Source of the DNA: Vectrevirus T147P9
DNA length: 44,649 bases
Direction: 5' to 3' (one strand)
Sequence record: OZ035774.1
Part shown: piece after piece, positions 10,081 to 28,728 of the stretch
Numbering within the stretch: position 1 is the first letter of the stretch
Layout of the letters: each line of letters starts with the position of its first letter
The notes under the pieces: generated by a model
Databases searched by the model: none
The model's input: only the letters and a program-made list of their open reading frames with translations
Told to the model about the DNA's origin: nothing
Made by a program: the position numbers and the translations under genes

Positions 10081-10410
10081 ATGGAACGCAATGCTAACGC
10101 TTACTACAACCTTCTGGCTGCAACTGTTGAAGCATTCAACGAGCGTATTCAGTTTGATGAGATTCGCGAAGGTGATGATTACTCTGATGCACTACATGAG
10201 GTTGTAGACAGCAATGTTCCAGTTTATTACAGCGAAATCTTTACAGTGATGGCTGCTGATGGTATTGATGTTGATTTTGAGGATGCTGGTTTGATTCCTG
10301 ACACGAAGGATGTAACCAAGATTCTACAAGCTCGCATCTATGAAGCTCTTTATAATGATGTACCAAATGACAGCGATGTAGTTTGGTGTGAAGGCGAAGA
10401 AGAGGAATAA
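10081..10410 (+). CDS. ocr: Ocr-like DNA-mimic anti-restriction protein (T7 gene 0.3 homologue)
   Basis: 109-aa very acidic protein; [45 protein letters not shown] aligns closely with remembered T7 Ocr ([45 protein letters not shown]); early-region position. Confidence 0.85.
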   Translation: [109 protein letters not shown]

Positions 10411-14865: not shown

Positions 14866-15087
14866 ATGGCTAAATACAGGATTAAGACGTGTTTAAACAA
14901 TCAGGGGCATGAGTGCTATATAGTACAGCGTAAGGTTCTACTGGGCTTGCTGTGGGTTACTTGTATGATGCCTATTGGCTACACTGACACTGAAGCCATC
15001 TTTGGCACGGAAGATGATGCCTACAGATTCATCGCTAAACGTAGAAAAGTAGAACGTTATAAACACAGAATTATTAAGGTAAACTAA
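14866..15087 (+). CDS. hypothetical protein
   Basis: 73-aa ORF abutting the primase-helicase start; no motif recognised. Confidence 0.5.
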   Translation: MAKYRIKTCLNNQGHECYIVQRKVLLGLLWVTCMMPIGYTDTEAIFGTEDDAYRFIAKRRKVERYKHRIIKVN

Positions 15088-17075
15088 TGGCTATAATCAA
15101 TAACATTCAATGCCCTGCTTGTGCTAAGAACGGGCATGATAAATCCTCTAATCATCTCATGATATTTGATGATGGTGCTGGCTACTGTAATCGTGGACAC
15201 TTTCATGATAATGGTAGACCCTACTACCACAAGCCGGAAGGTGGCATCGAAATCACCGAGCTACCCATCACTGGCAACATCAAATATACACCTTCTCAAT
15301 TCAAAGAAATGGAGAAGGAAGGGAAGATAAGCGACCCTAAGCTACGCGCCATCGCACTTGGTGGTATGCGTATGAAAGACCGTTGGGAGGTTATGAATGA
15401 GCAAGAAAGGGCAGACCAAGAAGCAGAGTGGAAGCTTGATGTTGAATGGTTCCTCACGCTTAAGCGTAAGAACCTTGTATCCCGTCACATTCGAGGTGAC
15501 ATCGCAGCAATGTACGATGTGCGCGTTGGACACGATGAAGAGGGAAGAGTCAACCGTCACTATTATCCACGATATGAAAAGGGTGTGCTTGTTGGAGCAA
15601 AATGCCGGACGTTGCCGAAGGATTTTAAGTTCGGACACCTAGGTAAACTCTTTGGTATGCAAGATCTTTTCGGTATGAACACTTTGTCTCACGTGTTAGA
15701 CAAGGGGAGACGAAAGGATTGCTTGCTTATTGTAGGCGGTGAACTTGATGCACTAGCAGCGCAGCAGATGCTCCTTGATTCTGCCAAGGGTACTAAGTGG
15801 GAGGGTCAGCCATACCATGTATGGTCTGTCAACAAAGGTGAGTCTTGCCTTGAAGAGATAGTGCAGAACCGTGAGCATATCGCCCAATTCAAGAAGATTA
15901 TATGGGGTTTTGATGGAGATGAGGTAGGGCAGAAGCAGAATCAGCAAGCGGCTCGCCTGTTTCCTGGCAAATCCTATATCCTTGAATACCCCTCTGGTTG
16001 CAAAGATGCTAACAAGGCATTGATGGCTGGCAAGGCTAAAGAGTTTGTAGATGCATGGTTTAATGCCAAGTCATCTGATGAAGTCTTTGGTAGCCAGATT
16101 AAATCTATCGCATCTCAAAGGGATAAGCTCAAGGCTGCACGTCCAGAGCAAGGACTATCATGGCCTTGGCCTAAGCTGAACAAGGTAACGCTAGGTATTC
16201 GTAAGAATCAGCTTATCATTGTAGGTGCAGGGTCTGGTGTAGGTAAGACTGAGTTCCTTCGTGAAGTAGTTAAGCACCTCATTGAAGAACACGGTGAATC
16301 TGTAGGCATCATTTCTACAGAAGACCCGATGGTCAAGGTGTCCCGTGCTTTTATCGGCAAGTGGATTGATAAGCGTATTGAGTTACCGCCAACCAACGAC
16401 CCGAAAGAAGATGGATACCGTGAGGTGTTCGACTACACCGAGGAAGAAGCTAACGCCGCCATTGATTATGTAGCTGATACAGGTAAGCTGTTTGTGGCTG
16501 ACCTAGAGGGTGACTATTCGATGGAAAAGGTAGAGCAAACTTGCCTAGAGTTTGAGGCTATGGGCATTTCTAATATCATCATTGATAACTTAACGGGAAT
16601 TAAATTAGATGAGCGTGCTTTTGGTGGGAAGGTTGGTGCACTTGATGAATGCGTCAAGCGGATTGGTACTATCAAAGACCGACACCCGGTTACTATATTC
16701 CTTGTATCACACCTTACACGTCCTCCGGCAAACCGTACCCAACACGAAGAAGGTGGCGAAGTTATCCTTTCTGACTTCCGAGGCTCAGGCGCTATCGGAT
16801 TCTGGGCATCTTACGCCTTGGGGATTGAGCGTAATACAAGAGCTGAAACGCTTGACGAAAGGACTACCACGTACATCTCATGTGTCAAAGACCGCGACCA
16901 AGGTATCTGGACTGGAACCAAGGTCATGCTTAAGGGTGACATTCAAACCGGACGTTTAATGGAACCACAAGCCCGTACTAAGTCATTTGATACAGGTGAA
17001 GCAAGGCAACAAGAAGTGCCGGATTTACCGGACACTATAGAAGAGACAACCTTTGACGATGAACAGGAGTTTTAA
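15087..17075 (+). CDS. DNA primase/helicase (T7 gp4-like)
   Basis: N-terminal Cys4 zinc ribbon (CPACAKNGHDKSSNH...CNRGH), central TOPRIM-like region, Walker A VGAGSGVGKTEF of DnaB-family helicases; acidic C-terminal tail ending EQEF like T7 gp4. Confidence 0.9.
   Translation: MAIINNIQCPACAKNGHDKSSNHLMIFDDGAGYCNRGHFHDNGRPYYHKPEGGIEITELPITGNIKYTPSQFKEMEKEGKISDPKLRAIALGGMRMKDRWEVMNEQERADQEAEWKLDVEWFLTLKRKNLVSRHIRGDIAAMYDVRVGHDEEGRVNRHYYPRYEKGVLVGAKCRTLPKDFKFGHLGKLFGMQDLFGMNTLSHVLDKGRRKDCLLIVGGELDALAAQQMLLDSAKGTKWEGQPYHVWSVNKGESCLEEIVQNREHIAQFKKIIWGFDGDEVGQKQNQQAARLFPGKSYILEYPSGCKDANKALMAGKAKEFVDAWFNAKSSDEVFGSQIKSIASQRDKLKAARPEQGLSWPWPKLNKVTLGIRKNQLIIVGAGSGVGKTEFLREVVKHLIEEHGESVGIISTEDPMVKVSRAFIGKWIDKRIELPPTNDPKEDGYREVFDYTEEEANAAIDYVADTGKLFVADLEGDYSMEKVEQTCLEFEAMGISNIIIDNLTGIKLDERAFGGKVGALDECVKRIGTIKDRHPVTIFLVSHLTRPPANRTQHEEGGEVILSDFRGSGAIGFWASYALGIERNTRAETLDERTTTYISCVKDRDQGIWTGTKVMLKGDIQTGRLMEPQARTKSFDTGEARQQEVPDLPDTIEETTFDDEQEF
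17023..17046 (+). promoter_or_regulatory. phage RNAP promoter inside the 3' end of the helicase gene
   Basis: atttaccggacactatagaagaga. Confidence 0.6.
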
Positions 17076-17236
17076 TGGAAATTATTAAACCAGTATTGAA
17101 TATCGGTATTGAGATCCTATTCATGCTTGTGATCGCAGATTATGCTGCACGATATGGATTCAAGAAAGCTGTGAAACTTATCGTTGCATCTGGTTTTCTT
17201 ATGTCAATGTTCTTTATTGTAACACGCCTTATCTAG
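17075..17236 (+). CDS. hypothetical small membrane protein (two predicted TM helices)
   Basis: 53-aa ORF MEIIKPVLNIGIEILFMLVIADYAARYGFKKAVKLIVASGFLMSMFFIVTRLI; ATG overlaps the helicase stop; not in track. Confidence 0.35.
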   Translation: MEIIKPVLNIGIEILFMLVIADYAARYGFKKAVKLIVASGFLMSMFFIVTRLI

Positions 17237-17253
17237 TGTATTTATCAGGGCTT

Positions 17254-17269
17254 GTCTCACATGTGAGAC
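17254..17269. repeat. 16-bp perfect palindrome GTCTCACATGTGAGAC (copy 3 of 6)
   Basis: Extended context ggcttgtctcacatgtgagacaggctcttatt forms an 11-bp-stem hairpin followed by a U-rich tract. Confidence 0.9.
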
Positions 17270-17308
17270 AGGCTCTTATTAAGTACATTAAATAACTGGA
17301 GATTGATT

Positions 17309-18031
17309 ATGTATAAATTAGTATTGAATGTAGGTGATTATGTTCGTAACATCAATGAAGCCTCACGTCGTTATCGTTGCCGTGGTGTAGTGGCTCGTGT
17401 AAGTGAGAACATGTATCATGTAGAATATGAGGATGGTATTAAGGCTTCTTACCACAAGAAAACAGCACATAAATATCTTGAAAAGATTGTAGAGATAAAC
17501 AATCAATGTAAGTGCATACATGATGAGGTTTGCGATAAGTGTGCACGTCAGGCAGTTAAAGCCTTTACCTTTGCTCAACGTTATGGTTCTATGTATGGCG
17601 CTGGTCACAAGACCCTTGCAGAAGCAGCTTGGAAGACATTACAGTTTGAGCGTTCAAATGGACGACGCACCACAATTAAGAAAGAGCGCCGCAATGTAAT
17701 CACTGGTAAGACTCAAAGTGAAATGATTAAGCAATGTGGCACTGCACTAGGTGTTACGCAGTTTAACACTCGTGCTCTTGGTAAATCCACAGGACAAGCT
17801 ATGGTAAAGATTGGCGAAGCCATGATGCATCCAAATGTACCTGTACGAATCAGGGATGTTGACCATGCAATCACAGAACACGGTACGCAACGACGTGTAA
17901 TTAATAAGCATTTTGCCGACACTATAGAAGGTATTATTCGTAAGCAAGGGTTGAAAGGTCTTCACATCTTGAATGATGAAGAGTTACTGTACCTCCCTAT
18001 TGTTACTGAAGAAACCTACGTGAATATCTAA
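17309..18031 (+). CDS. hypothetical protein
   Basis: 240-aa ORF (ATG 17309; track TTG 17303); Cys cluster CKCIHDEVCDKC; contains an internal promoter-like sequence. Confidence 0.6.
   Translation: MYKLVLNVGDYVRNINEASRRYRCRGVVARVSENMYHVEYEDGIKASYHKKTAHKYLEKIVEINNQCKCIHDEVCDKCARQAVKAFTFAQRYGSMYGAGHKTLAEAAWKTLQFERSNGRRTTIKKERRNVITGKTQSEMIKQCGTALGVTQFNTRALGKSTGQAMVKIGEAMMHPNVPVRIRDVDHAITEHGTQRRVINKHFADTIEGIIRKQGLKGLHILNDEELLYLPIVTEETYVNI
17910..17933 (+). promoter_or_regulatory. phage promoter-like sequence (variant) inside a CDS
   Basis: attttgccgacactatagaaggta. Confidence 0.4.
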
Positions 18032-18041
18032 GGAGTTAATC

Positions 18042-18260
18042 ATGACTAAAGTATTAATTTATATGCGTGGACCTCATAAATGCTATGCAGTTGTAGCACC
18101 AAATGGTGTTAAGCCCTATAGTACTTCAAAAGGATTGGCATTAATAGGTGCTAGTAGTAGTGCAAGTTTCCAAATGGAACTTTTTGGTCATTGGAATGAA
18201 AGGCAATTCCGTGAGGATTTTAAAGTCATTGGCAGCTTCATGGTGAAACATGCAGAATAA
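18042..18260 (+). CDS. hypothetical protein
   Basis: 72-aa ORF with AAGGAG RBS. Confidence 0.5.
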   Translation: MTKVLIYMRGPHKCYAVVAPNGVKPYSTSKGLALIGASSSASFQMELFGHWNERQFREDFKVIGSFMVKHAE

Positions 18261-18426
18261 ACATAGTCTTAAAATGTTCGATGGTCATGAAGACCTGCAA
18301 GCCAAGATTACTAACCAAGCCTTCCTGTTTGCACAGTTAACCATGGCTGAAGCAAAGAAGAATAGCCTGACGCGTGAACAGGTTATCAAGGAAAGTGAAG
18401 TGAAACGTAAGATTCGCAGTCGATAA
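18250..18426 (+). CDS. hypothetical protein
   Basis: 58-aa ORF MQNKHSLKMFDGHEDLQAKITNQAFLFAQLTMAEAKKNSLTREQVIKESEVKRKIRSR overlapping the previous stop; not in track. Confidence 0.3.
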   Translation: MQNKHSLKMFDGHEDLQAKITNQAFLFAQLTMAEAKKNSLTREQVIKESEVKRKIRSR

Positions 18427-18436
18427 GTCAAGGGTT

Positions 18437-18452
18437 GTCTCACACGTGAGAC
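18437..18452. repeat. 16-bp palindrome variant GTCTCACACGTGAGAC (copy 4 of 6)
   Basis: One symmetric change (ACGT centre) keeps it palindromic; context gggttgtctcacacgtgagacagcctttc. Confidence 0.85.
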
Positions 18453-18553
18453 AGCCTTTCATCATATTGATTGGAGGATTAACTTTATGAATAACTACGA
18501 CTCTGATTGGGATTTCTACGATTCAATGCAATCTAAACCAGAAAGGAGGGAGG

Positions 18554-19033
18554 ATGAGTTCGAAACAGATCAAATGTACGAGGATTTTTACTAACTACAT
18601 CCTCTACTCTGATGGTCGAGTTCTTAACGAGAAAACCGGACAATATCTAAGAGGTTACTTAGATAAAGATGGGTATCATATTATGAATATTAAAGGGAAA
18701 CACCTTAAAGTTCATCGATTAGTTGCTATCCATTTCATACCTAACCCTAATAATTTACCTGAAGTTAACCATAAAGATCATGACCGTCTAAACAATAATG
18801 ATTGGAATCTAGAGTGGTGTACTCATCAAGATAACAATAAGCATAGCTTACATTTAGTAATAGCTTCTTGTGCTAAACGCTATGACTTTATATCACCACA
18901 AGGTGTCCATGTAGAAGTCTATAACTTACGTGAGTTTTGTAGGAATAACAACCTACAGCAATCTCATATGGTTAAGGTGGCTAAAGGTAAAGTAAGACAT
19001 CATAAAGGTTGGACTAATTATGCTAGATGTTGA
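18554..19033 (+). CDS. HNH homing endonuclease
   Basis: VHRLVAIHFIPNPNNLPEVNHKDHDRLNNNDWNLEWCTHQDNN is an HNH motif paralogous to the ORF at 331..774; immediately upstream of and overlapping the DNA polymerase start. Confidence 0.75.
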   Translation: MSSKQIKCTRIFTNYILYSDGRVLNEKTGQYLRGYLDKDGYHIMNIKGKHLKVHRLVAIHFIPNPNNLPEVNHKDHDRLNNNDWNLEWCTHQDNNKHSLHLVIASCAKRYDFISPQGVHVEVYNLREFCRNNNLQQSHMVKVAKGKVRHHKGWTNYARC

Positions 19034-21530
19034 TTGGAAAGAATTTGGAAAGAATCGCATACTTGTCATGGATGCTGAAAGTAAAGGTTTGCTTGATGCC
19101 ATACGCTATGGTCATCGTGAAGATGTGCACATCATTTGCTGCATGGACTTGCTCACCACTGAGGAGTTCCTATTCTTCGACCCGTATGAGATGCGTGACC
19201 CTGAAGCAAGAGAACGCCTAAAAGAATGGGAAGGCCATCAAGATGGAACATTGGTTGACGGTGTTAACTTCCTTAAGCACTGCGAAGCCATCGTCTCACA
19301 GAACTTCCTAGGGTACGACGGCCTTCTATTTGAGAAAGCATTCCCTGATATATGGAAAGGCTTTAATTATACAGAGAAGCGTGGCAAGGGCAGGCTCCGT
19401 GCCGACCTGTGTCCTGTGCGAGTCATGGACACGCTGGTGATGAGCCGCCTGTTAAACCCTGATAGACGCCTCCCTCCGCAAGCATACGCCAAAGGCATGG
19501 GTAACGTCGCCCCTCACTCAATTGAGGCGCACGGCATCCGTATAGGCCGTTATAAGCCGGAGAATGAGGACTGGTCTAAGCTAACTGACCACATGGTTCA
19601 CCGTGTACGGGAGGACGTGGCGATTGGTCGTGACTTGTTCCTCTGGCTCTTTAACGGGGAATGGATGGAGCACAAACGCCGTGGCGTGAATAAACGCACT
19701 GGCCTAGGTATTGAGACAGCCTTCCACATGGAGTCCATTGTGGCGCTGGAGATGAGCCGTCAGGCCGAGCGCGGGTTCCGTCTGGACATCGACAAAGCTT
19801 TGGCCCGATGCGAAGAATTGGACGCTAAGATTGACGAGACAGTCGCAGCGTTCCGCCCTCACATGCCTATGCGTATCAAGTCTAAACCTTTTAAACCGGA
19901 AGAAAAGAATGAAGTATGCCAACGCGCAAATGAGTATGGAGCTAGCAACAATATACCTACTGTCCTTGACCCCTCACACTTTCTTCATGCCGAGAGACGA
20001 GGAGATCGCAAGACAGTATGGAGTGTCACTACTAAGTCTGGTGATTGGTCGGCTAGTGTCAAGAAAGACTTTCCTCACCTTAGAGGAAGCCGTAATGACA
20101 CGCCAAGCATCAAGTGGATTGGCGCTTACTCGCCTGTTACTTTCGAAGAGATTCCCTTGGGTAACAGGGATACAGTTAAGCAAGTACTCTATGATTATGG
20201 ATGGAAAGGTGTTGAATTTAACGATACCGAGCAAGCGCATCTCGATGAGCACGGAGTGTTACCCAAACCTTGGAGTGGTAAGATAAATGAAAAGTCCCTT
20301 ACTTTATGGCAAGAAAGAGCCGCACGTGAAGGTAAAACAGTCCCTGATTGGTGCTTGGGTATCGCTGCATGGTACATACTCGTATCCCGTCGTGGTCAGA
20401 TACTCAACCGTGGTGACGTTGAAGCCTTCAACGAGAAGGGAACGTGGCCCTCGCAGGCTGGTGTACGAAAGTGTCGCGGCCTTGTACCTGTAGCATTCAA
20501 CAAGGAGCTAGGAATCAATGCGCAGCAATACTACGAGAGGTACGGATGTTGGCCTACGTCTGACAAAGATGACGGAGAGTGGCGTGTGCCAGGCAATGCT
20601 GTTACTATTGGCACTAATACGTTCCGTATGCGTCATCGTAATATTGTTAATATCCCTTCCCGTGGATTGTATCCTCTGCGTGATTTATTCATAGCTAGCA
20701 AGGGTAAAATGATACTCGGATGTGATGGAGCGGGGCTTGAGCTTCGCATCTTAGCCCATTTCATGGGTGATCCTGAGTATATTGATATTGTCTTGAATGG
20801 CGATATTCACTCGCACAACCAAGCGAAGGCTGGATTGCCCTTACGTGACACTGCGAAAACATTTATCTACGCTTTTCTCTACGGTTCTGGCATACCAAAC
20901 CTTGCTGCGGTATGTGGCATGACTGAAGCACAGATGAAAGAATGTGTCGCTCGCTTTGAAGTAGAGCTACCTCACTTAGCTAAACTTAAGGAGGGAGTGG
21001 AATCTGCTGCTTCACAATTTGGGTACATGCACGCGGTAGATGGGCGCTGGGGTCGTGTACGCGTTAGCAATGGTGAGATTAAGATTCACACTTGTCTAAA
21101 CGTATTACTTCAGATGACTGGCTCCCTCACTATGAAGTACTCAAAAGTGAAAGCACTGGCTACCATGCGTAAAGAGGGCGTAGCCCTTGATGCAAATGGT
21201 AATCCAGCAATGCTTGTTGACTACCATGATGAATGGCAGATGGAAGTACCTGAAGACGAAGTGTTAGAAATTCGCTACTCTATTCCTTCCTCTGAATGGA
21301 AAGAAGAAGAGAAAAGACAGTATCGTGACAGTGATGGACGCATGTGGTCTGCACCTAAGGTTGTGGAAGGTAATCCTAAAGAAGACGAGACGATCACAGT
21401 ACGTCGTCGTTACCATCGTGCAGGTGAGATTTTAGCTGAATCTATTACATGGGCTGGAGAATACCTCAAGCTACGTATTCGAATGGATGGTGAATATATG
21501 CTTGGATATTCATGGGCTGAAACGCACTAA
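19020..21530 (+). CDS. DNA polymerase (family A, T7 gp5-like)
   Basis: 836 aa; motif A DGAGLELRILAHF, motif B RDTAKTFIYAFLYGSG, motif C HDEWQMEV; N-terminal 3'-5' exonuclease-like region. Confidence 0.9.
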   Translation: MLDVDWKEFGKNRILVMDAESKGLLDAIRYGHREDVHIICCMDLLTTEEFLFFDPYEMRDPEARERLKEWEGHQDGTLVDGVNFLKHCEAIVSQNFLGYDGLLFEKAFPDIWKGFNYTEKRGKGRLRADLCPVRVMDTLVMSRLLNPDRRLPPQAYAKGMGNVAPHSIEAHGIRIGRYKPENEDWSKLTDHMVHRVREDVAIGRDLFLWLFNGEWMEHKRRGVNKRTGLGIETAFHMESIVALEMSRQAERGFRLDIDKALARCEELDAKIDETVAAFRPHMPMRIKSKPFKPEEKNEVCQRANEYGASNNIPTVLDPSHFLHAERRGDRKTVWSVTTKSGDWSASVKKDFPHLRGSRNDTPSIKWIGAYSPVTFEEIPLGNRDTVKQVLYDYGWKGVEFNDTEQAHLDEHGVLPKPWSGKINEKSLTLWQERAAREGKTVPDWCLGIAAWYILVSRRGQILNRGDVEAFNEKGTWPSQAGVRKCRGLVPVAFNKELGINAQQYYERYGCWPTSDKDDGEWRVPGNAVTIGTNTFRMRHRNIVNIPSRGLYPLRDLFIASKGKMILGCDGAGLELRILAHFMGDPEYIDIVLNGDIHSHNQAKAGLPLRDTAKTFIYAFLYGSGIPNLAAVCGMTEAQMKECVARFEVELPHLAKLKEGVESAASQFGYMHAVDGRWGRVRVSNGEIKIHTCLNVLLQMTGSLTMKYSKVKALATMRKEGVALDANGNPAMLVDYHDEWQMEVPEDEVLEIRYSIPSSEWKEEEKRQYRDSDGRMWSAPKVVEGNPKEDETITVRRRYHRAGEILAESITWAGEYLKLRIRMDGEYMLGYSWAETH

Positions 21531-21539
21531 GGAGGTTTA

Positions 21540-21905
21540 ATGAGAACGGAACGCAAAGCAGCTAACTACCGGAAAAGGTGCGAAGACATGCCGTTCCATA
21601 TGTACAATATTGCTAAACGTAGTGATGCACGTAAGAAGTGTATACCTTATAACTTAGACTCTACCTATTTAGAAAGCATCTGGACAGGGATATGTCCTGT
21701 GTTCGGTATTCCTCTTAATGTACCATTGAAAGAGGCTAAAGGGCGAGGATCTTGTCATACGGCACACCTTGACAGAATTAACCCTAAGTTGGGTTATGTG
21801 AAAGGTAATGTAGCATGGTTAAGTGGACGAGCTAATCGCATCAAATATGATGCTAGTCTGGAAGAGTTGGAGGCACTTCTTCTTTGGATGAAATCACAGC
21901 ATTGA
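21540..21905 (+). CDS. HNH endonuclease
   Basis: 121 aa with CPVFGIPL...SCHTAHLDRINPKLGYVKGNVAWLSGRANRIK (His-Asn-His pattern); directly after the DNA polymerase gene. Confidence 0.7.
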   Translation: MRTERKAANYRKRCEDMPFHMYNIAKRSDARKKCIPYNLDSTYLESIWTGICPVFGIPLNVPLKEAKGRGSCHTAHLDRINPKLGYVKGNVAWLSGRANRIKYDASLEELEALLLWMKSQH

Positions 21906-21962
21906 GTTATACTCAAGGTCACTTACGAGTGGCCTTTATGAATAACTTAACTGGAGAGTATT

Positions 21963-22223
21963 ATGATTAAATCACAGAAGTATTTCTCAACTAAAGATCG
22001 TAAGGTAGGTTTTGAAATCAAAGTTTGGGAAGACGGACACATTACTATTATTTACGAAGGTAAAGGTTCTAATGGTATGATGCTACGTAGATTCCGTACT
22101 TTCACAAAGAAAGAATGTATGCATATGTCTGAATGCATGTTTCTTTACATCATTGCTGATGATATTAAAGGTATGAAGCTAATTGTATCTCTACCTTTAA
22201 TACCTAAATCTTTGTTAGGTTGA
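21963..22223 (+). CDS. hypothetical protein
   Basis: 86-aa ORF with GGAGAG RBS. Confidence 0.5.
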   Translation: MIKSQKYFSTKDRKVGFEIKVWEDGHITIIYEGKGSNGMMLRRFRTFTKKECMHMSECMFLYIIADDIKGMKLIVSLPLIPKSLLG

Positions 22224-22246
22224 TTTACTGGACACTATAGAAGGAA
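22223..22246 (+). promoter_or_regulatory. phage RNAP promoter (consensus copy)
   Basis: atttactggacactatagaaggaa. Confidence 0.75.
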
Positions 22247-22310
22247 AGCCTAGGTAAATATAGGCTTATAAGGTAGTATAGGTAATTAAGTAAATATAGG
22301 AGAGATAAAT

Positions 22311-22688
22311 ATGTCTATGGTAACTACTCTGGTATTCGTAGCTCAATACTTTCGTGGTTTGGCTAACAAGTTCAAAGCTAAGGCTATCAAAGCTATTGAG
22401 TCTCGCATTGAAGCAGTACATGCAGAGCAGTTTGAAGTTGAAGAACATCGTAGTTCTCAAATGATTGACTGCCACAATCGCTACTATGCATCTCGTGATG
22501 ACCTTAATGCACGCCAAGTCAAAGAGGTTGAAGAGATGCTGGCACGTCACCAGCAAGAGCGCGACAGCCTGAAAGCTGAATTTGAAGAGAACAAGGCATC
22601 CATCGCCCTTGTACATCAAGCCGCATCTGACAGCCTGAAGAAAGAGATTGTTATGCTGGAGATTGAGTTAGACAATCTTACCAAATAA
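22311..22688 (+). CDS. hypothetical protein (predicted coiled coil)
   Basis: 125 aa, AGGAGAG RBS; charged heptad-like C-terminal half. Confidence 0.55.
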   Translation: MSMVTTLVFVAQYFRGLANKFKAKAIKAIESRIEAVHAEQFEVEEHRSSQMIDCHNRYYASRDDLNARQVKEVEEMLARHQQERDSLKAEFEENKASIALVHQAASDSLKKEIVMLEIELDNLTK

Positions 22689-22710
22689 TTACTGGACACT
22701 ATAGAACAAT
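22687..22710 (+). promoter_or_regulatory. phage RNAP promoter
   Basis: aattactggacactatagaacaat overlapping the previous stop. Confidence 0.65.
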
Positions 22711-22765
22711 AGGTCGGCTTAGTTCGGCCTATGATTGTGTAGTGTAACAATAGGAGACTAAATAA

Positions 22766-23572
22766 ATGGCACGTGGTGATTTTGATTTTGGTGCTCAGGT
22801 TACTAAAGCTGAAGGTAAGGTTTTTAAGAACCCTGAAGTTGGTGATCATGAAGCAGTAATCTCTGGCATCATTCATGTGGGTTCCTTCCAAGATATCTTT
22901 AAGAAAGGCAATACCACTGAAGTTAAGAAGCCAGCAAACTTTGTTCTTGTTAAGATTGTCCTGATGGGTGACGATGACAAGAACGAAGATGATTCTCGCA
23001 TGGAACAGTGGATGGCTGTGCCTCTGAAGTCTGGTGACAAGGCAACCTTGACTAAGTTCCTGAATGCAGTTGATCCTAAAGAACTGCTGGGTGGCTTCGA
23101 TGACTTCATCGGTGAATGCCTGACTGCAACTATGGTTGGCTCTGGTGACAAGAATGACGATGGTTCATTCAAGTATGTTAACTGGAAAGGATTCGGTGGT
23201 ATGCCTGACAAGCTTAAGAAACTTGTCATTGCTCAGGTTGAAGAAGAGGGTCTGTCTATGACAGGTCACATCACCTTCGACAAGCTGACCAAAGAAATCC
23301 TTGATGACATTCCTGCTAACTTGGTACGCCAATACTTCCTGAATGAAACGCCTCGTGGTAAGAACCTGTCTGTTGCTGGCTCTCATGTAGAAGCAATCAT
23401 TAAATCTGCTCGTGAAGAAGACCCAGAGTGGAAGAAGGCCAAGAAGAAAGATGATGAGGATGCCACTCCAGCTAATCGTAAATCTCTGGACACTGGTGAG
23501 TCTGTTCCGCAGGAAGTACCTGAAGCAGAAGATACGCCTGCACCGGAGATGGATGAGGACGCAGAATATTAA
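22766..23572 (+). CDS. putative ssDNA-binding protein (gp2.5-like acidic C-terminal tail)
   Basis: 268 aa, strong RBS and promoter, codon usage of an abundant protein; acidic C-terminal tail ending in Tyr (EMDEDAEY) as in T7 gp2.5. Function inferred, not shown. Confidence 0.4.
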   Translation: MARGDFDFGAQVTKAEGKVFKNPEVGDHEAVISGIIHVGSFQDIFKKGNTTEVKKPANFVLVKIVLMGDDDKNEDDSRMEQWMAVPLKSGDKATLTKFLNAVDPKELLGGFDDFIGECLTATMVGSGDKNDDGSFKYVNWKGFGGMPDKLKKLVIAQVEEEGLSMTGHITFDKLTKEILDDIPANLVRQYFLNETPRGKNLSVAGSHVEAIIKSAREEDPEWKKAKKKDDEDATPANRKSLDTGESVPQEVPEAEDTPAPEMDEDAEY

Positions 23573-23581
23573 GGAGAACTG

Positions 23582-23800
23582 ATGAAAGTACAAATCGTAA
23601 CTCTGCATTGCAAGAAAGGAATCACCACGCTTGGCGGCAATACTTTCCACTCCTTCTCCGAGGGGGAGGTTTATTCTGACCTGCACTACATCTGGCGCGA
23701 TGGACAGCACGTGGTGAACTACAGCGACCCAGCTACGGGGAAACGCCACGGCGTATCGCTTCCGGCGCATGACATTGCTCAGGTGAACACAGTTTTATAA
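23582..23800 (+). CDS. hypothetical protein
   Basis: 72-aa ORF with AAGGAGAA RBS. Confidence 0.5.
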   Translation: MKVQIVTLHCKKGITTLGGNTFHSFSEGEVYSDLHYIWRDGQHVVNYSDPATGKRHGVSLPAHDIAQVNTVL

Positions 23801-23801
23801 A

Positions 23802-23817
23802 GTCTCACATGTGAGAC
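23802..23817. repeat. 16-bp perfect palindrome GTCTCACATGTGAGAC (copy 5 of 6)
   Basis: Exact copy, 15 bp upstream of the promoter at 23833. Confidence 0.9.
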
Positions 23818-23832
23818 AAATCGGTGTCCGGT

Positions 23833-23856
23833 ATTTACTGGACACTATAGAAGAGA
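23833..23856 (+). promoter_or_regulatory. phage RNAP promoter (consensus copy)
   Basis: atttactggacactatagaagaga. Confidence 0.75.
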
Positions 23857-23904
23857 AGAATTTTAATCGGCGATAATGCCACAACTAACAAAGGAGAATT
23901 TAAT

Positions 23905-24282
23905 ATGTTCAAGATTGAAACTATCGTAAACCGTGTTGTTAAAGGTGCTGCTCTGGTATCCGTTGAGTCTTTCATTATCGTCGATGAAGCTGATCAACTG
24001 GTAGCTGGTACTAAGGCTTACGATACCCGTGAAGAAGCTCAGGCTAAGATTGACAGCATGGGTAACTTCGCTGCTGGTCTGGAGTTCGCTCGCGCTTGCT
24101 TCCCTGAGCAGGCTGACAAAGCTCAGATTGGTAAGGCTAATATCGTAGCTGAATATCTGGATTGGATTGCTGCTGGTAAGCCGGTGAAAGAAGTTAAGTC
24201 TGCTGAAGAAGCTGAAGCTCAGGAAGCAGAAGAAGTAGCTGCACCGGTAGATGCTCCGGTAAGCGAAGAAGAAGAGTTTTAA
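23905..24282 (+). CDS. hypothetical abundant acidic protein with C-terminal EEEEF tail
   Basis: 125 aa; strong promoter, AAAGGAG RBS and highly biased codon usage; C-terminus SEEEEF resembles the polymerase-binding tails of T7 gp2.5/gp4. Confidence 0.55.
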   Translation: MFKIETIVNRVVKGAALVSVESFIIVDEADQLVAGTKAYDTREEAQAKIDSMGNFAAGLEFARACFPEQADKAQIGKANIVAEYLDWIAAGKPVKEVKSAEEAEAQEAEEVAAPVDAPVSEEEEF

Positions 24283-24287
24283 TTGAT

Positions 24288-24321
24288 GCCCTGTCTGCCT
24301 TAGTGTAGGCAGGGTCTTTTG
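24288..24321 (+). terminator. hairpin plus U-tract terminator
   Basis: ccctgtctg-ccttagtg-taggcaggg followed by tcttttg, directly after the 23905..24282 stop. Confidence 0.55.
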
Positions 24322-24346
24322 CGTAATAGTTATTGGAGAATGAATT

Positions 24347-24652
24347 ATGCCGACTATTAAATCTCGTTTAGTAGCAGACTATGTGTATGGTCGTGACTTA
24401 AAGTTAATGCAAGATTACTTTAAAGTAATCATCCTGCTGGATGGAGAAGTGTTTCACACTAAAACATTCACCCTTCCTGAATTGTTTGATTTAGGTTATT
24501 GGGTTTATACATATCAGGCCATAGCAGACAAGGTGCTACTCAGTGTATTAGAGGAGTGGCCTACATGCGACCAAACTTCGACTTCGGAGCTACAGTATCG
24601 GAAGACAATAATCTCATCTTGTGGCCAACTGAAGGTAATAGAATCGCTTTAA
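24347..24652 (+). CDS. hypothetical protein (3' extent uncertain)
   Basis: 101-aa ORF overlapping the exonuclease start by about 90 nt in another frame. Confidence 0.35.
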   Translation: MPTIKSRLVADYVYGRDLKLMQDYFKVIILLDGEVFHTKTFTLPELFDLGYWVYTYQAIADKVLLSVLEEWPTCDQTSTSELQYRKTIISSCGQLKVIESL

Positions 24653-25593
24653 TAGATGCTGATATGCTACCCTACATCGTAGCTTATACAATCAGTGACA
24701 TGACTTATGTGCGAGCCACAACTCGTGTTAAGTCAGGACAAGTCCCATCAATCAAAGATACACCTGAGTGTAAGCAAGCGTGTGACCGTGTGAACTCCTT
24801 GCTCAACTCTTGGGTGTATGCAGCAGAGTGTGATGCAGCTAAGTTATTCATGACGAAATCAGAAGCTAACTTCCGTGTTCGCCTAGCCTTCACCAAGCCT
24901 TATAAGGGTCAACGTAAGACCGAGAAGCCTCCGTTCTTCTATGAATTGCGAGAGCATCTCTTAGAGGTTCATGGTGCAATCTTGGCAGATGGAGAAGAGG
25001 CTGATGACCTCATGAGCATTGCACAATGGGACAGCCACCGCCGCTTCCAGCAAGATACAGGTAACGAGTTCCCTATCGGTAGTCCAGAGCATAAAACATT
25101 CTCTGATACTTGCATCGTTTCCTTAGATAAGGATTTGATGATTGTTCCCGGTTGGCATCTTCAGCCGGGTCAAGAGAAGAAATGGGTAGAGCCTATGGGT
25201 TGGCTTGAGTTACGCCGTAAGGCTAATGGTCAGGTTAAAGACCTTAAAGGTGCTGGCCTCATGTTTCATTATGCACAGATGATTATCGGTGATGATATTG
25301 ATAACTATGCTGGCATACCTGGACGTGGTGCTAAATACGCCTATGATCTTCTCAAAGATTGTAAGACAGAGAAAGAGTTGTACATGGCAGTGCTTGGTGC
25401 TTACAAGGCTAAGTTCGGACATGGACAAGTTAAGATTAAGAATTACCGAGGTGGTTATCGTATCGGCAAGGCCTTTGACCTGATGCTCGAATGTGGTCGC
25501 CTAGCTCACATGGCAAGATTCAAAGGTGATATATGGCGAGCCGATAAGAACCCAATCTTGTGGGGAGATGATGCGGAATGGTTAGCAAATTAA
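24565..25593 (+). CDS. 5'-3' exonuclease (T7 gp6-like, FEN family)
   Basis: IALIDADMLPYIVAY, VSLDKDLMIVPGW and GDDIDNYAGIPGRGAKYAYDLL correspond to T7 gene 6 exonuclease segments; start at ATG 24565 with GAGGAG RBS (track start 24499). Confidence 0.85.
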   Translation: MRPNFDFGATVSEDNNLILWPTEGNRIALIDADMLPYIVAYTISDMTYVRATTRVKSGQVPSIKDTPECKQACDRVNSLLNSWVYAAECDAAKLFMTKSEANFRVRLAFTKPYKGQRKTEKPPFFYELREHLLEVHGAILADGEEADDLMSIAQWDSHRRFQQDTGNEFPIGSPEHKTFSDTCIVSLDKDLMIVPGWHLQPGQEKKWVEPMGWLELRRKANGQVKDLKGAGLMFHYAQMIIGDDIDNYAGIPGRGAKYAYDLLKDCKTEKELYMAVLGAYKAKFGHGQVKIKNYRGGYRIGKAFDLMLECGRLAHMARFKGDIWRADKNPILWGDDAEWLAN

Positions 25594-27088: not shown

Positions 27089-27592
27089 ATGTCACACTAT
27101 GAATGTAAGAAGTGTCATAAGCGTTATGATTACTGTACTTGTGGTCAAGAGAAAACATCTTTTAAAGTTGGAGACAAGGTATTTCGTAATGAAAAAGATT
27201 CGATTCCTTGGAATCAATACTGCAAAGAAGCGGGTATCGACCCTGATAGCCCTGTAACCATAGATGATATTGATGGCATTAACTTGTGCTTTCGTGAGGT
27301 GAGGGGTACAGGTTGGGATTCCAAAAAATTCAAACTTGCATCTGATAAGTTAGACAACAATATGGTAACTAAGCCTAAGCACTACGAGTTCTTTGATGGC
27401 GTAGAGGCAATCACTATCATTGCCCGCAGTATGACCGAGAAGCAATTCGCTGGCTATTGCATGGGTAATGCTTTGAAGTACCGTCTACGTGCAGGTAAGA
27501 AGTTCAACACTGAAGAAGACCTGAAGAAAGCAGATTACTACAAAGAGTTATTCCAGAAGCATCGTCACGAATGTATTGATGAGGATATTTGA
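27089..27592 (+). CDS. hypothetical protein with N-terminal Cys cluster
   Basis: 167 aa (ATG 27089, GGAGG RBS); CKKCHKRYDYCTC zinc-finger-like cluster and conserved-looking C-terminal KPKHYEFFDG...GNALKYRLRAGKK. Confidence 0.55.
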   Translation: MSHYECKKCHKRYDYCTCGQEKTSFKVGDKVFRNEKDSIPWNQYCKEAGIDPDSPVTIDDIDGINLCFREVRGTGWDSKKFKLASDKLDNNMVTKPKHYEFFDGVEAITIIARSMTEKQFAGYCMGNALKYRLRAGKKFNTEEDLKKADYYKELFQKHRHECIDEDI

Positions 27593-27593
27593 T

Positions 27594-28541
27594 ATGAATA
27601 TCTTTGAGTTCCTAGGTCTTCCAGAAGACCACCGCAATCACCCATTCATGCTGGTGAAGCATCGCGGTGAAGTTCCTGAGAAGAAATTAACTTTTCCATG
27701 TTATGCACAGGTGAAACGAGATGGTATCTTTTCTGCTGTTGTTGTTCGCACTGATGGTGTCGTTGGCATTTTTGGTCGCACTGGTAAGAAATTGGCAAAC
27801 ACTGAAGGCCTCGAACAAGCATTTGCTACCTTTCCGGTTGGCATTTATCTTGGTGAGCTTCAGTCTATGGCCATTGATATCTACCTTGAGGCAATCTCTG
27901 GGGTTGTGAACCCCAATCGCACTGAGCCACTTGATTTCATAGGCCAGCAGATTAAAGACAACCTGTATATCGACTTCTTCGATATGTTAACTATTAAGGC
28001 ATTCCATGATGGATTCACTGATGTTTCTTATCTCAAACGTTACGATGCTTTACATCGCCGCATCGGCGCTCATCTTAGCGGGTACAACGCTATCCTTCCT
28101 ATTACCCCTTGCCATAATGAGCGAGAAGTTGAAGCGTTTGCGCAAGAGCAGATAGACGCAGGCCGAGAGGGTGCTGTGTTTAAACTGGACTGTGATTATG
28201 AAGCAGGACATAAAGGTTATCGTCAGACTAAAGAAGTCCGTAAGGTAACTTATGACCTTACTTGTATTGGCTTTGAAGAAGGTAAAGGCAAATACAAAGG
28301 TAAGGTAGCTAACCTCATTTTCAAATGGAAAGGAGGCAAGACAATCAAAGCTATGTTAGGTAAGGGGTGGACTCATGCAGATGCAGAACAGATGTTCCAC
28401 GACATTAAACATGGTGGACGATTGAATGTCATTGGTAAAATCTTTGAAGTCAAAGGTCTTCAGGATTCAAGCAAGGGCAACATTCGTCTGCCCAAAGCGG
28501 GGGAATTAAGACATGACAAAGATGAACCAGATTTCTTTTGA
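27594..28541 (+). CDS. ATP-dependent DNA ligase
   Basis: Adenylation motif I KRDG (AQVKRDGIFSAVV), EGAVFK motif IV-like, Lys-rich motif V-like region; size close to T7 ligase. Start at ATG 27594; in-frame alternatives TTG 27576 and ATG 27579. Confidence 0.7.
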   Translation: MNIFEFLGLPEDHRNHPFMLVKHRGEVPEKKLTFPCYAQVKRDGIFSAVVVRTDGVVGIFGRTGKKLANTEGLEQAFATFPVGIYLGELQSMAIDIYLEAISGVVNPNRTEPLDFIGQQIKDNLYIDFFDMLTIKAFHDGFTDVSYLKRYDALHRRIGAHLSGYNAILPITPCHNEREVEAFAQEQIDAGREGAVFKLDCDYEAGHKGYRQTKEVRKVTYDLTCIGFEEGKGKYKGKVANLIFKWKGGKTIKAMLGKGWTHADAEQMFHDIKHGGRLNVIGKIFEVKGLQDSSKGNIRLPKAGELRHDKDEPDFF

Positions 28542-28728
28542 TAGCATGAAGGCAACTCGTGCAGTTGAGGTAGCAGAAGCTATCTTTGAAACTTTATCCT
28601 GTGGCATGGAAGTGCCCTATACTTTACTTGCTGATGCAGAAGAACTTGGTCTTTCTGTAGAAGCTATCCAAGAGAAGGTTGACGAATTATATGGTACAGA
28701 CGAAGAAGAAACCGACGATTTCATTTGA
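28513..28728 (+). CDS. hypothetical acidic protein
   Basis: 71-aa ORF with acidic C-terminus. Confidence 0.45.
   Translation: MTKMNQISFDSMKATRAVEVAEAIFETLSCGMEVPYTLLADAEELGLSVEAIQEKVDELYGTDEEETDDFI

What the first reader, a model, noticed from the sequence alone, without database searches (positions are those of the whole stretch)
15087..24282. Three replication-region proteins end in acidic tails with a terminal aromatic residue
Primase-helicase ends ...TFDDEQEF, the 268-aa protein (22766..23572) ends ...EMDEDAEY, and the 125-aa protein (23905..24282) ends ...VSEEEEF. In T7 the acidic C-terminal-Phe tails of gp4 and gp2.5 both dock on the DNA polymerase, so three such tails suggest an extra polymerase-binding accessory factor. 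The 125-aa protein has no assigned function and looks highly expressed.
Basis: inference. Interest (0 to 1): 0.5.

Follow-up and report, generated by a model that had tools for sequence, protein, structure and literature searches.

The report
Replication proteins sharing acidic aromatic-ended tails
In this SP6/K1E-like phage the helicase-primase, a previously unannotated single-strand-DNA-binding protein and a small, abundantly expressed protein of unknown fold all end in the same conserved acidic tail with a terminal aromatic residue, which suggests that a third, uncharacterised protein plugs into the docking site that in phage T7 organises the replication machinery.

Summary
The window is a complete Vectrevirus (SP6/K1E-like) genome. 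The primase-helicase (…TFDDEQEF), the 268-aa protein (…EMDEDAEY) and the 125-aa protein (…SEEEEF) are the only 3 of 50 proteins that meet a strict acidic-tail/terminal-aromatic rule (0.02 expected, P about 1e-6).

The tails are conserved across two phage subfamilies, down to 30-35% identity.

The 268-aa protein (SP6 gp18 homologue, "hypothetical" in nearly every record listed) is predicted to have an OB fold, closest to the ssDNA binder PrgE. It has no sequence homology to T7 gp2.5, and no other protein scanned in the window matched a known SSB family. I read it as the phage's SSB.

The 125-aa protein (SP6 gp20 homologue) has a small fold with no known relatives. It has its own consensus phage promoter and a terminator that is conserved after the gene in 15 genomes. 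Its family occurs in the same phages as the SSB family.

Polymerase docking is only an analogy. The T7 "front basic patch" loop is deleted in these polymerases, and some gp20 homologues lack the tail.

Verdict: a genuine shared short linear motif and a new variant of the T7 tail system. The receptor and the role of gp20 are untested.

The parts
15087..17075 (+). Bifunctional primase-helicase (T7 gp4-like), 662 aa
   Evidence: PHROG 239 E=7e-188; Pfam DnaB_C E=1.4e-14; BLASTP to T7 gp4A 25% identity, E=4e-28.
17049..17072 (+). Primase-helicase C-terminal tip TFDDEQEF (acidic, terminal Phe)
   Evidence: An aromatic residue is last or within 2 residues of the end in all 14 tabulated genomes and in 2 further contigs.
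17022..17044 (+). Phage-RNA-polymerase promoter lying inside the coding sequence of the helicase tail, read as D-L-P-D-T-I-E-E
   Evidence: Promoter core match at 17025-17042 with 1 mismatch; reading frame read from the DNA. In SP6 the tail ..LGDTIEE equals the translation of the SP6 promoter consensus as I recall it; the SP6 DNA itself was not read.
19020..21530 (+). Family A DNA polymerase, 836 aa; the candidate receptor by analogy with T7
   Evidence: Pfam DNA_pol_A E=2e-21; PHROG 17. 35% identity to T7 gp5 over the palm and fingers, but the T7 front-basic-patch loop aligns with a gap.
22689..22706 (+). Consensus phage promoter in front of the 268-aa gene; a further copy lies at 22225-22242
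   Evidence: Exact matches to the 18-nt promoter core.
22766..23572 (+). 268-aa OB-fold protein, SP6 gp18 homologue; inferred phage SSB
22781..22792 (+). N-terminal FDFG peptide of the SSB (disordered in the model), shared with the exonuclease
   Evidence: Residues 1-18 have pLDDT below 50. The motif is present in the SSB of all 14 genomes and the exonuclease of 13 and in two further contigs.
23546..23569 (+). SSB C-terminal tip EMDEDAEY
23835..23852 (+). Consensus phage promoter dedicated to the 125-aa gene
   Evidence: Exact match; sequence read.
23905..24282 (+). 125-aa acidic protein, SP6 gp20 homologue. Beta-hairpin plus three helices (residues 1-90), then a roughly 30-residue acidic linker and the tip SEEEEF
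24262..24279 (+). Tip SEEEEF of the 125-aa protein
   Evidence: 169 of 175 family representatives end in F/Y.
24288..24322 (+). Intrinsic terminator (11-bp GC-rich stem plus T-run) directly after the 125-aa gene
   Evidence: Top terminator-like site of the region. An equivalent hairpin plus U-run follows the gene in 15 related genomes.
24565..25593 (+). 5'-3' exonuclease (T7 gp6-like). Its N-terminus MRPNFDFGATV carries the same peptide as the SSB
   Evidence: PHROG 107 E=7e-74; N-terminal motif.
27576..28541 (+). ATP-dependent DNA ligase ending …RHDKDEPDFF; a fourth aromatic-ended tail, of a different type
   Evidence: PHROG 114; Pfam ligase domains end at residue 312 of 321. The tail D-K-x-x-(P/G/A)-D-(F/Y) is present in 13 of 14 genomes and in L021; it is absent in T7 ligase.
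28513..28728 (+). 71-aa protein ending …EEETDDFI
   Evidence: PHROG 5860 'unknown function'. Acidic tails are seen in 4 lineages, with aromatic residues in three (SP6 gp26 …EADYQY, Aeromonas MJG …DDFDEKFD); phiEa1H ends …GDEDE.

Best explanation
Shown from sequence.
- Three replication-module proteins of this SP6/K1E-like phage carry one short linear motif. It is a flexible acidic C-terminal segment that ends in Phe or Tyr, and selection has kept it across two Autographiviridae subfamilies.
- Two of the three reproduce the T7 arrangement: the gp4-like primase-helicase, and an OB-fold protein (SP6 gp18 homologue) that I take to be the phage's unannotated SSB.

Inferred.
- As in T7, these tips are docking peptides for a basic site on a phage replication partner. 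The candidates are the DNA polymerase and the SSB's own DNA-binding groove.
- The third carrier, the 125-aa gp20 homologue, has a compact domain of novel fold on a roughly 30-residue acidic leash.
- It is made in SSB-like amounts. It lies in the SSB-gp19-gp20 cassette, which has three stacked promoters and one conserved terminator.
- It most likely uses the tip to occupy the same docking site. It would then act as a third ligand at the fork: either an adaptor that brings its folded domain to the polymerase or SSB, or a competitor that tunes the exchange of SSB and helicase tails.
- Its folded domain must also have a function that does not depend on the tail.
For: 1. Non-random: 3 observed against 0.019 expected.
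2. Conserved: the tip persists while the linker varies, in the 268-aa family, the 125-aa family and the primase-helicase.
3. The 268-aa protein has an OB fold. No other window protein scanned against Pfam matched an SSB family, although the virion genes were not scanned.
4. T7 precedent: the gp4 and gp2.5 tails end in DTDF and DGDF and bind gp5 (PMC12339929).
5. The 125-aa and 268-aa families have nearly identical distributions: 211 versus 214 phage records, with the same count in nine of the ten genera listed (Pseudomonas 12 versus 15). The genes are adjacent or near-adjacent in every complete genome examined.
6. Lineage-specific resemblance between the tips of the different proteins:
   - Aeromonas MJG: GASY, EATY and DAAY.
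   - Pseudomonas uligo: …ETFD, …EVFE and …AFEG.
   - Alpheus: SSB …EFGE and gp20 …SFEG.
   - Contig L021: helicase …EDFG and SSB …EDFS.
7. Core-gene behaviour: the family is present in phages of hosts from Vibrio to Pseudomonas to E. coli. It always lies in the DNA-metabolism block and is always followed by a terminator.
8. In this genome and in SP6, about 22 residues upstream of the tips of the helicase and the SSB are also alike (score 63 against 22±4.6 in shuffles, 0 of 20000 reaching it).
Against: - No binding was tested, and no complex could be modelled.
- The T7 front basic patch loop is absent from all eight SP6-like polymerases aligned, and the thioredoxin-binding domain has no detectable counterpart.
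- The co-variation rests on few, related lineages and is not statistically significant by my own hypergeometric estimates (roughly 0.03 to 0.14, without correction for relatedness).
- Four to six gp20-family members lack the aromatic tip, so the tail is dispensable in some lineages.
- High abundance is unusual for a polymerase accessory factor.
- Acidic tails are also typical of DNA mimics and of host-directed inhibitors.
Confidence: 0.5

Rival explanations
1. The 125-aa protein is directed at the host. It would be an abundant acidic inhibitor or decoy, for example a mimic of the host SSB C-terminal tip (…DDDIPF; my own knowledge) that titrates host SSB-binding enzymes, or a nucleoid or defence-protein inhibitor. 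Its position would then be analogous to that of the abundant T7 gp5.5. On this view its tail only resembles the helicase and SSB tails.
For: - It has very high expression signals and an acidic pI of 4.3.
- It sits between the polymerase and exonuclease genes, as T7 gene 5.5 does.
- It has no homology to any replication protein.
- Some homologues lack the tail.
Against: - It behaves as a core gene tied to the SSB family across phages of very different hosts, unlike typical host-takeover genes.
- The tips resemble the phage's own SSB and helicase tips lineage by lineage rather than …IPF.
- There is no homology to T7 gp5.5.
- The phage already has Ocr in its early region (10081-10410).
Confidence: 0.2
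2. The tails act within or between copies of the same protein and not as a shared docking code. Each acidic tail would fold back on its own protein: onto the SSB's DNA groove as in gp2.5, or onto basic surfaces of the helicase. The tail of the 125-aa protein would be a solubility or charge feature, or a DNA mimic, with no common receptor.
For: - The T7 gp2.5 tail also occupies its own DNA-binding groove (PMC12339929).
- The linkers are of low complexity and variable.
- The tail has been lost in some gp20 lineages.
Against: - The terminal aromatic residue is the most conserved position in three unrelated proteins, whereas the charge pattern drifts. That is typical of a pocket-binding peptide rather than a bulk charge effect.
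- The folded domain of gp20 is itself acidic (net -4), so self-binding of its tail is unlikely.
Confidence: 0.15
3. Coincidence of composition: acidic C-termini are common in phage proteins, and the aromatic ending carries no meaning.
For: Other proteins in the window end in acidic residues without an aromatic one: Ocr …GEEEE, the nucleotide kinase …CIDEDI, and 40221-43529 …DELED.
Against: The expected number is 0.019 against 3 observed. The terminal F/Y is conserved in 97% of 175 gp20 representatives and in nearly all SSB and helicase homologues at 30-40% identity.
Confidence: 0.02

Closest known systems
[quoted passage not shown]
   Same: [quoted passage not shown] It is encoded in the DNA-metabolism block under its own phage promoter. 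In T7 the tail binds the polymerase.
T7 gp4 primase-helicase C-terminal tail (…DTDF)
   Same: A homologous enzyme (E=4e-28) with an acidic tail ending in Phe.
   Different: The T7 docking loop on the polymerase is missing here. In this phage the tail-coding sequence also contains a phage promoter.
PrgE of plasmid pCF10 (PDB 8S4S)
   Different: 15% identity. PrgE is 144 residues (PMC11137577), comes from a plasmid, and is not described as having an acidic aromatic tip. No sequence-level relationship was detected.
E. coli SSB C-terminal tip (…DDDIPF) as an interaction hub
   Same: The same logic: an acidic tail with a terminal Phe that recruits partner proteins (my own knowledge).
   Different: The fold context differs (a monomer-type OB fold against a tetramer) and there is no I-P-F. 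Only the SSB of metagenomic contig L003 ends …NDDVPF.
T7 gp5.5 (abundant small class II protein, H-NS inhibitor)
   Same: A positional and expression analogue of the 125-aa protein: small, abundant (the abundance of gp5.5 is my own knowledge), and encoded between the polymerase and exonuclease genes.
   Different: No homology, and gp5.5 has no acidic tail ending in an aromatic residue after a run of Glu.

Membership tests
T7 gp4-type primase-helicase | DnaB-like helicase domain and homology to gp4 | tested here: met
   Pfam DnaB_C E=1.4e-14; PHROG 239 E=7e-188; BLASTP to T7 gp4A E=4e-28.
T7 gp4-type primase-helicase | Toprim primase domain | tested here: inconclusive
   Toprim_2 scores 21.4 bits, just under the 22.1-bit cut-off. 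The PHROG match does cover residues 2-646.
T7 gp4-type primase-helicase | Acidic C-terminal tail with terminal Phe that binds the polymerase | tested here: inconclusive
   The tail is present and conserved. Binding cannot be tested with these tools, and the T7 receptor loop is absent from this polymerase.
T7 gp2.5-like SSB family | Sequence homology to gp2.5 | tested here: not met
   hhalign of the family profile against T7 gp2.5: probability 0.1%. No Pfam family for any of the 34 members. No PDB sequence hit.
T7 gp2.5-like SSB family | OB fold | tested here: met
T7 gp2.5-like SSB family | Acidic C-terminal tail ending in an aromatic residue | tested here: met
   …EMDEDAEY; conserved in 45 of the 46 full-length homologues.
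T7 gp2.5-like SSB family | Binds ssDNA and the polymerase | not testable with these tools
   Needs EMSA and pull-down experiments.
Bacterial SSB (Pfam SSB, tetrameric, …DDDIPF) | Match to the SSB profile and an IPF tip | tested here: not met
   No Pfam hit. The tip is DAEY.
PrgE-like filament-forming OB proteins | N-terminal tail that contacts the neighbouring monomer | tested here: inconclusive
   A conserved, disordered N-terminal FDFG peptide exists. Its partner is unknown.
T7 gp5.5 (H-NS inhibitor), considered for the 125-aa protein | Sequence homology | tested here: not met
   hhalign probability 0.1%.
DUF1508 / YegP (UPF0339), considered for the 125-aa protein | Match to the DUF1508 profile or fold | tested here: inconclusive
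Ocr-type DNA mimic, considered for the 125-aa protein | Match to the Ocr profile | tested here: not met
   No hit. The Ocr homologue of the genome is a different gene, 10081-10410.

The most novel reading that the evidence does not exclude
The gp20 family is a new kind of replisome component. It would be an abundant small protein that carries a copy of the SSB and helicase docking tip on a long acidic leash. It would either compete with them for the polymerase, timing polymerase or SSB exchange at the fork, or tether its novel domain there as a phage-encoded accessory or processivity factor in place of the thioredoxin system of T7. Together with the N-terminal FDFG peptide shared by the SSB and the exonuclease, this would mean that the SP6-type replisome is wired by at least two short peptide codes, neither of which has been described.
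Probability: 0.25. Interest if true: 0.7.

Novelty: new variant of a known kind. Interest (0 to 1): 0.5.

Why it matters
SP6/K1E/K1-5-like phages are widely used (SP6 RNA polymerase, capsule-targeting therapeutic phages). Yet no SSB is annotated among the records examined here, and two conserved, highly expressed replication-block genes (gp18 and gp20) are listed as 'unknown' (PMC4837284).

Assigning gp18 as the SSB fills a gap in the replisome parts list.

A third protein with the docking tip would extend the best-understood model of replisome coordination. In that model the T7 gp4 and gp2.5 tails compete for the polymerase. The extension can be tested directly with peptides and tail-deletion mutants.

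The SP6-type polymerase lacks the T7 docking loop, so finding its receptor would show how such peptide-pocket interfaces move during evolution.

Tried and rejected
- Sequence searches of both unknown proteins gave nothing usable: Pfam and PDB sequences.
- hhalign of the family profiles against T7 gp2.5 and gp5.5 found no relationship.
- Searches for distant or fused relatives of the 125-aa family found only small proteins of about 110-130 aa in the listed hits. Where the contig was long it was a ~45-kb SP6-like contig. There were no informative domain fusions and no annotations. This covers an exhaustive phmmer search (25 clusters) and a profile search with the tail removed (303 clusters, of which the best 120 were listed).
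- I looked for a rival SSB. PP99 orf17, annotated 'putative ssDNA binding protein', is a YpsA/SLOG-DprA-like protein and has no counterpart in the window. No other window protein scanned against Pfam matches an SSB family.
- I tested whether the similarity of the helicase and SSB C-terminal linkers is general. It is significant only in this genome and in SP6 (z 7.5 and 3.9) and not in eight other lineages. The DNA alignment shows only scattered identical positions (56 of about 108 aligned bases), so a recent gene conversion is unlikely.
- A codon-adaptation test of expression failed because no reference index was installed.
- The SP6 genome paper (Dobbins 2004) is not in the held library.
- Literature searches for an SSB, or for gp20, in SP6-like phages found nothing relevant.

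Full report
**What the window is.** The 44.6-kb window is a complete, circularly permuted genome of a Vectrevirus (SP6/K1E/K1-5-like phages; Autographiviridae, Molineuxvirinae).
- The region of the finding is 95.7% identical to Escherichia phage ULINTec7 and 91-96% identical to the other 24 best records listed.
- All genes are on the + strand.
- The region 15-29 kb is the DNA-metabolism block. In order it holds the primase-helicase, small ORFs, an HNH gene, the DNA polymerase, an HNH-like ORF, small ORFs, the 268-aa protein, a 72-aa protein, the 125-aa protein, the exonuclease, endonuclease VII, a phosphoesterase, a nucleotide kinase and the ligase.

**The observation.**
- The three C-termini are exactly as reported.
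- Under a strict rule (aromatic last residue, at least 4 of the 7 preceding residues acidic, no K/R), internal octamers of the 50 called proteins predict 0.019 such C-termini. Three are observed, and they are exactly these proteins (P about 1e-6).
- A looser rule adds the DNA ligase (…DKDEPDFF).
- I verified the T7 comparison in the T7 record: gp2.5 ends …EADEDGDF and gp4 ends …DWSNDTDF. None of the other 20 T7 proteins tabulated from this part of the genome (genes 1.2 to 7.3) has such a tail.
- In T7 the gp2.5 tail anchors on the front basic patch of gp5 (K587, K589, R590, R591). A DTDF peptide that mimics the gp4 tail is seen bound to gp5 in PDB 6P7E (PMC12339929).

**The 268-aa protein.**
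- It belongs to PHROG 862 ('unknown function') and matches no Pfam family.
- It is the homologue of SP6 gp18.
- tblastn finds it in 214 phage records. Every annotated row listed but one calls it 'hypothetical protein'; the exception reads 'HNH homing endonuclease'. It is also 'Unknown' in a published SP6-like annotation (PMC4837284).
- An AlphaFold model built on 34 homologues (pLDDT 80, pTM 0.73) has three parts: a disordered N-terminus (residues 1-18), a beta-barrel core (26-144) followed by a helical subdomain (148-230), and a disordered tail.
- There is no sequence relationship to T7 gp2.5 or to any PDB chain.
- No other window protein scanned against Pfam matches an SSB family; the virion genes were not scanned.
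- The tail motif P-x-P-x-(M/L)-(D/S)-x-x-x-E-(Y/F) is kept down to 33% identity.
- I conclude that this protein is the phage SSB. It is functionally analogous to gp2.5 but is not a detectable member of that family.

**The 125-aa protein.**
- It belongs to PHROG 4429 ('unknown function') and is the homologue of SP6 gp20.
- The model (pLDDT 77) shows a beta-hairpin (residues 3-26) and three helices (42-51, 55-65, 71-90). An unstructured acidic segment follows.
- No structure in the PDB or in BFVD resembles it significantly. There is only a sub-threshold hint of a DUF1508/YegP-like beta-beta-alpha unit at the N-terminus.
- The family is small: 25 clusters at 50% identity among 1.8 billion proteins.
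- Members in the listings are about 110-130 aa. Where the contig was long it was a ~45-kb SP6-like contig.
- The family occurs in 211 phage records. Its genus counts match those of the SSB family in nine of the ten genera listed, and differ for Pseudomonas (12 against 15).
- The conserved core residues are K37, A45, G58, A64, K72, K77, A78, N79, A82, W87 and G91.
- The linker is variable, but 169 of 175 representatives end in F or Y. A few lineages have lost the tail, for example the 97-aa homologue in contig L021.

**Expression.**
- The 18-nt promoter core TTACTGGACACTATAGAA occurs 11 times in the genome, against 0.04 expected. Exact copies lie at 22225, 22689 (in front of the SSB gene) and 23835 (in front of the 125-aa gene).
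- The 125-aa gene has an AAGGAG ribosome-binding site.
- It is followed at once by the best terminator-like hairpin of the region.
- A GC-rich hairpin plus U-run follows the homologous gene in all 14 genomes examined and in contig L021. A terminator 'after a gene of unknown function' at conserved positions was noted for SP6 and UAB_Phi78 (PMC4837284).
- The SSB-gp19-gp20 segment is therefore a conserved, strongly transcribed cassette, and gp20 is probably made in amounts comparable to the SSB.

**Comparison across genomes.** I tabulated the C-termini in 14 genomes from Molineuxvirinae, Colwellvirinae, Gajwadongvirus and metagenomic lineages, and in two further contigs.
- The primase-helicase, the SSB and gp20 end in an aromatic residue, or have it within two residues of the end, in essentially all of them.
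- Tips often resemble each other within a lineage:
  - Aeromonas MJG: GASY, EATY and DAAY.
  - Vibrio D529: EQEF, EQEF and EEEF.
  - Pseudomonas uligo: ETFD, EVFE and AFEG.
  - Alpheus: SSB EFGE and gp20 SFEG.
  - L021: helicase EDFG and SSB EDFS.
- This is what a common receptor would produce. However, the lineages are few and related, and simple overlap tests are not significant, so I treat it as suggestive only.
- The ligase tail is a different motif: motif VI R-x-D-K, then x-x-(P/G/A)-D-(F/Y). It does not co-vary with the other three.

**The presumed receptor.**
- The polymerase is homologous to T7 gp5 only in the palm and fingers (35% identity over 211 residues).
- The T7 loop that carries K587, K589, R590 and R591 aligns with a gap in this polymerase and in seven relatives.
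- The thioredoxin-binding domain has no recognisable counterpart, although the thumb region carries a long insertion.
- Polymerase docking is thus an analogy and not a finding. The SSB's own groove is an equally plausible site, because the gp2.5 tail also binds its own groove.

**Other shared peptides.**
1. The SSB and the 5'-3' exonuclease both begin with M-x(1-7)-F-(D/N)-(F/Y)-G-(A/G)-(E/x)-(V/I). The motif is in the SSB of all 14 genomes and in the exonuclease of 13; in uligo my ORF call for the exonuclease showed none. It changes with lineage: FDFGA in phages of enterobacteria and FDYGG in Colwellvirinae. This stretch is disordered in the SSB model. PrgE uses an N-terminal tail to bind its neighbour on ssDNA (PMC11137577). 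The peptide may therefore mediate SSB-SSB contacts, and the exonuclease may borrow it.
2. The primase-helicase has an S-F-D-x-G element 30-40 residues before its end in six of the ten lineages compared.
3. In this genome and in SP6, the roughly 22 residues before the tips of the helicase and the SSB are significantly alike.
4. Part of the helicase tail (D-L-P-D-T-I-E-E) is encoded by a phage promoter that lies inside the gene.

**Interpretation.**
- Shown: the motif exists, is non-random and is conserved. gp18 has a predicted OB fold. gp20 is a conserved, strongly expressed core gene with no known fold relatives that is linked to the SSB gene.
- Inferred: the tips are docking peptides for a common site on a phage replication protein. 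gp20 is a third ligand of that site, acting as an adaptor or a competitor.
- The main rival is a host-directed role for gp20. Its core-gene behaviour across very different hosts argues against that, as does the resemblance of its tip to the phage's own tips. The rival is not excluded.

**Novelty.**
- The helicase tail is a new member of a known kind.
- The SSB is a new, sequence-unrelated carrier of a known device.
- A third, non-SSB, non-helicase carrier is a new variant.
- Nothing here is categorically new until the receptor and a phenotype are known.

Noticed in passing
window 22781-22792 and 24577-24588; also L003, L007, L010-L020, L021: The SSB-like protein and the 5'-3' exonuclease start with the same peptide, M-x-F-D-(F/Y)-G-(A/G)-E-V. 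It is present in every genome examined except one exonuclease (uligo), and it changes with lineage (FDFGA versus FDYGG). It is disordered in the SSB model. It may be an SSB-SSB contact peptide that the exonuclease borrows, or a second docking code.
   Followed up: partly
window 17022-17044: A phage promoter (ATTTACCGGACACTATAGAAGAG) lies inside the coding sequence of the primase-helicase acidic tail and is read as D-L-P-D-T-I-E-E. In SP6 the corresponding tail …LGDTIEE equals the translation of the SP6 promoter consensus as I recall it; the SP6 DNA was not read. The promoter sequence and the acidic tail therefore constrain each other.
   Followed up: partly
window 24288-24322; the equivalent site in L003, L007, L010-L020, L021: A strong hairpin plus U-run terminator directly follows the gp20-family gene in 15 genomes of two subfamilies, even in a lineage whose gp20 homologue has lost the acidic tail.
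   Followed up: yes
window 28515-28538 (end of the ligase gene 27576-28541): The DNA ligase ends R-H-D-K-D-E-P-D-F-F. A tail D-K-x-x-(P/G/A)-D-(F/Y) beyond ligase motif VI is present in 13 of 14 related genomes and in contig L021, but not in T7 ligase. It does not co-vary with the other three tails.
   Followed up: partly
window 28513-28728: A 71-aa protein (PHROG 5860, unknown function) encoded just after the ligase ends …EEETDDFI. SP6 gp26 ends …EADYQY, Aeromonas MJG ends …DDFDEKFD and phiEa1H ends …GDEDE. This may be another acidic tail; three of the four carry aromatic residues.
   Followed up: partly
window 16986-17048 versus 23480-23545: The roughly 22 residues before the tips of the primase-helicase and the SSB are alike (ARTKSFDTGEARQQEVPDLPDT against ANRKSLDTGESVPQEVPEAEDT). 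No one of 20000 shuffles reached the observed score. The similarity is seen only in this genome and in SP6, and the DNA shows only scattered identity.
   Followed up: yes
window 14482, 14665, 17254, 23802, 40174 (exact copies); 9067, 15686, 18437 (near copies): The 16-bp perfect palindrome GTCTCACATGTGAGAC recurs in intergenic regions. Three of the five exact copies sit 4-17 nt upstream of a phage promoter. It may be an RNA-processing or regulatory hairpin.
   Followed up: partly
window 18554-19033 and 21540-21905: An HNH homing-endonuclease gene (18554-19033, as annotated in ULINTec7; it overlaps the polymerase start) and an unassigned 121-aa ORF (21540-21905, no Pfam hit) flank the DNA polymerase gene. 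In the closest relative, ULINTec7, the primase-helicase gene is split by such an element, and in phiEa1H, RCIP0089 and WAG25P1 the polymerase gene is split.
   Followed up: no
window 24347-24652: A 101-aa ORF (PHROG 10319, labelled 'DNA repair protein') lies between the terminator and the exonuclease gene and overlaps the exonuclease start (24565) by about 88 nt in another frame.
   Followed up: no
L021 10105-10398; P0182, P0185, P0187: Some gp20-family members lack the aromatic acidic tip (for example one ends …KAKLAA) while keeping the conserved core. The folded domain must therefore have a function that does not depend on the tail.
   Followed up: partly
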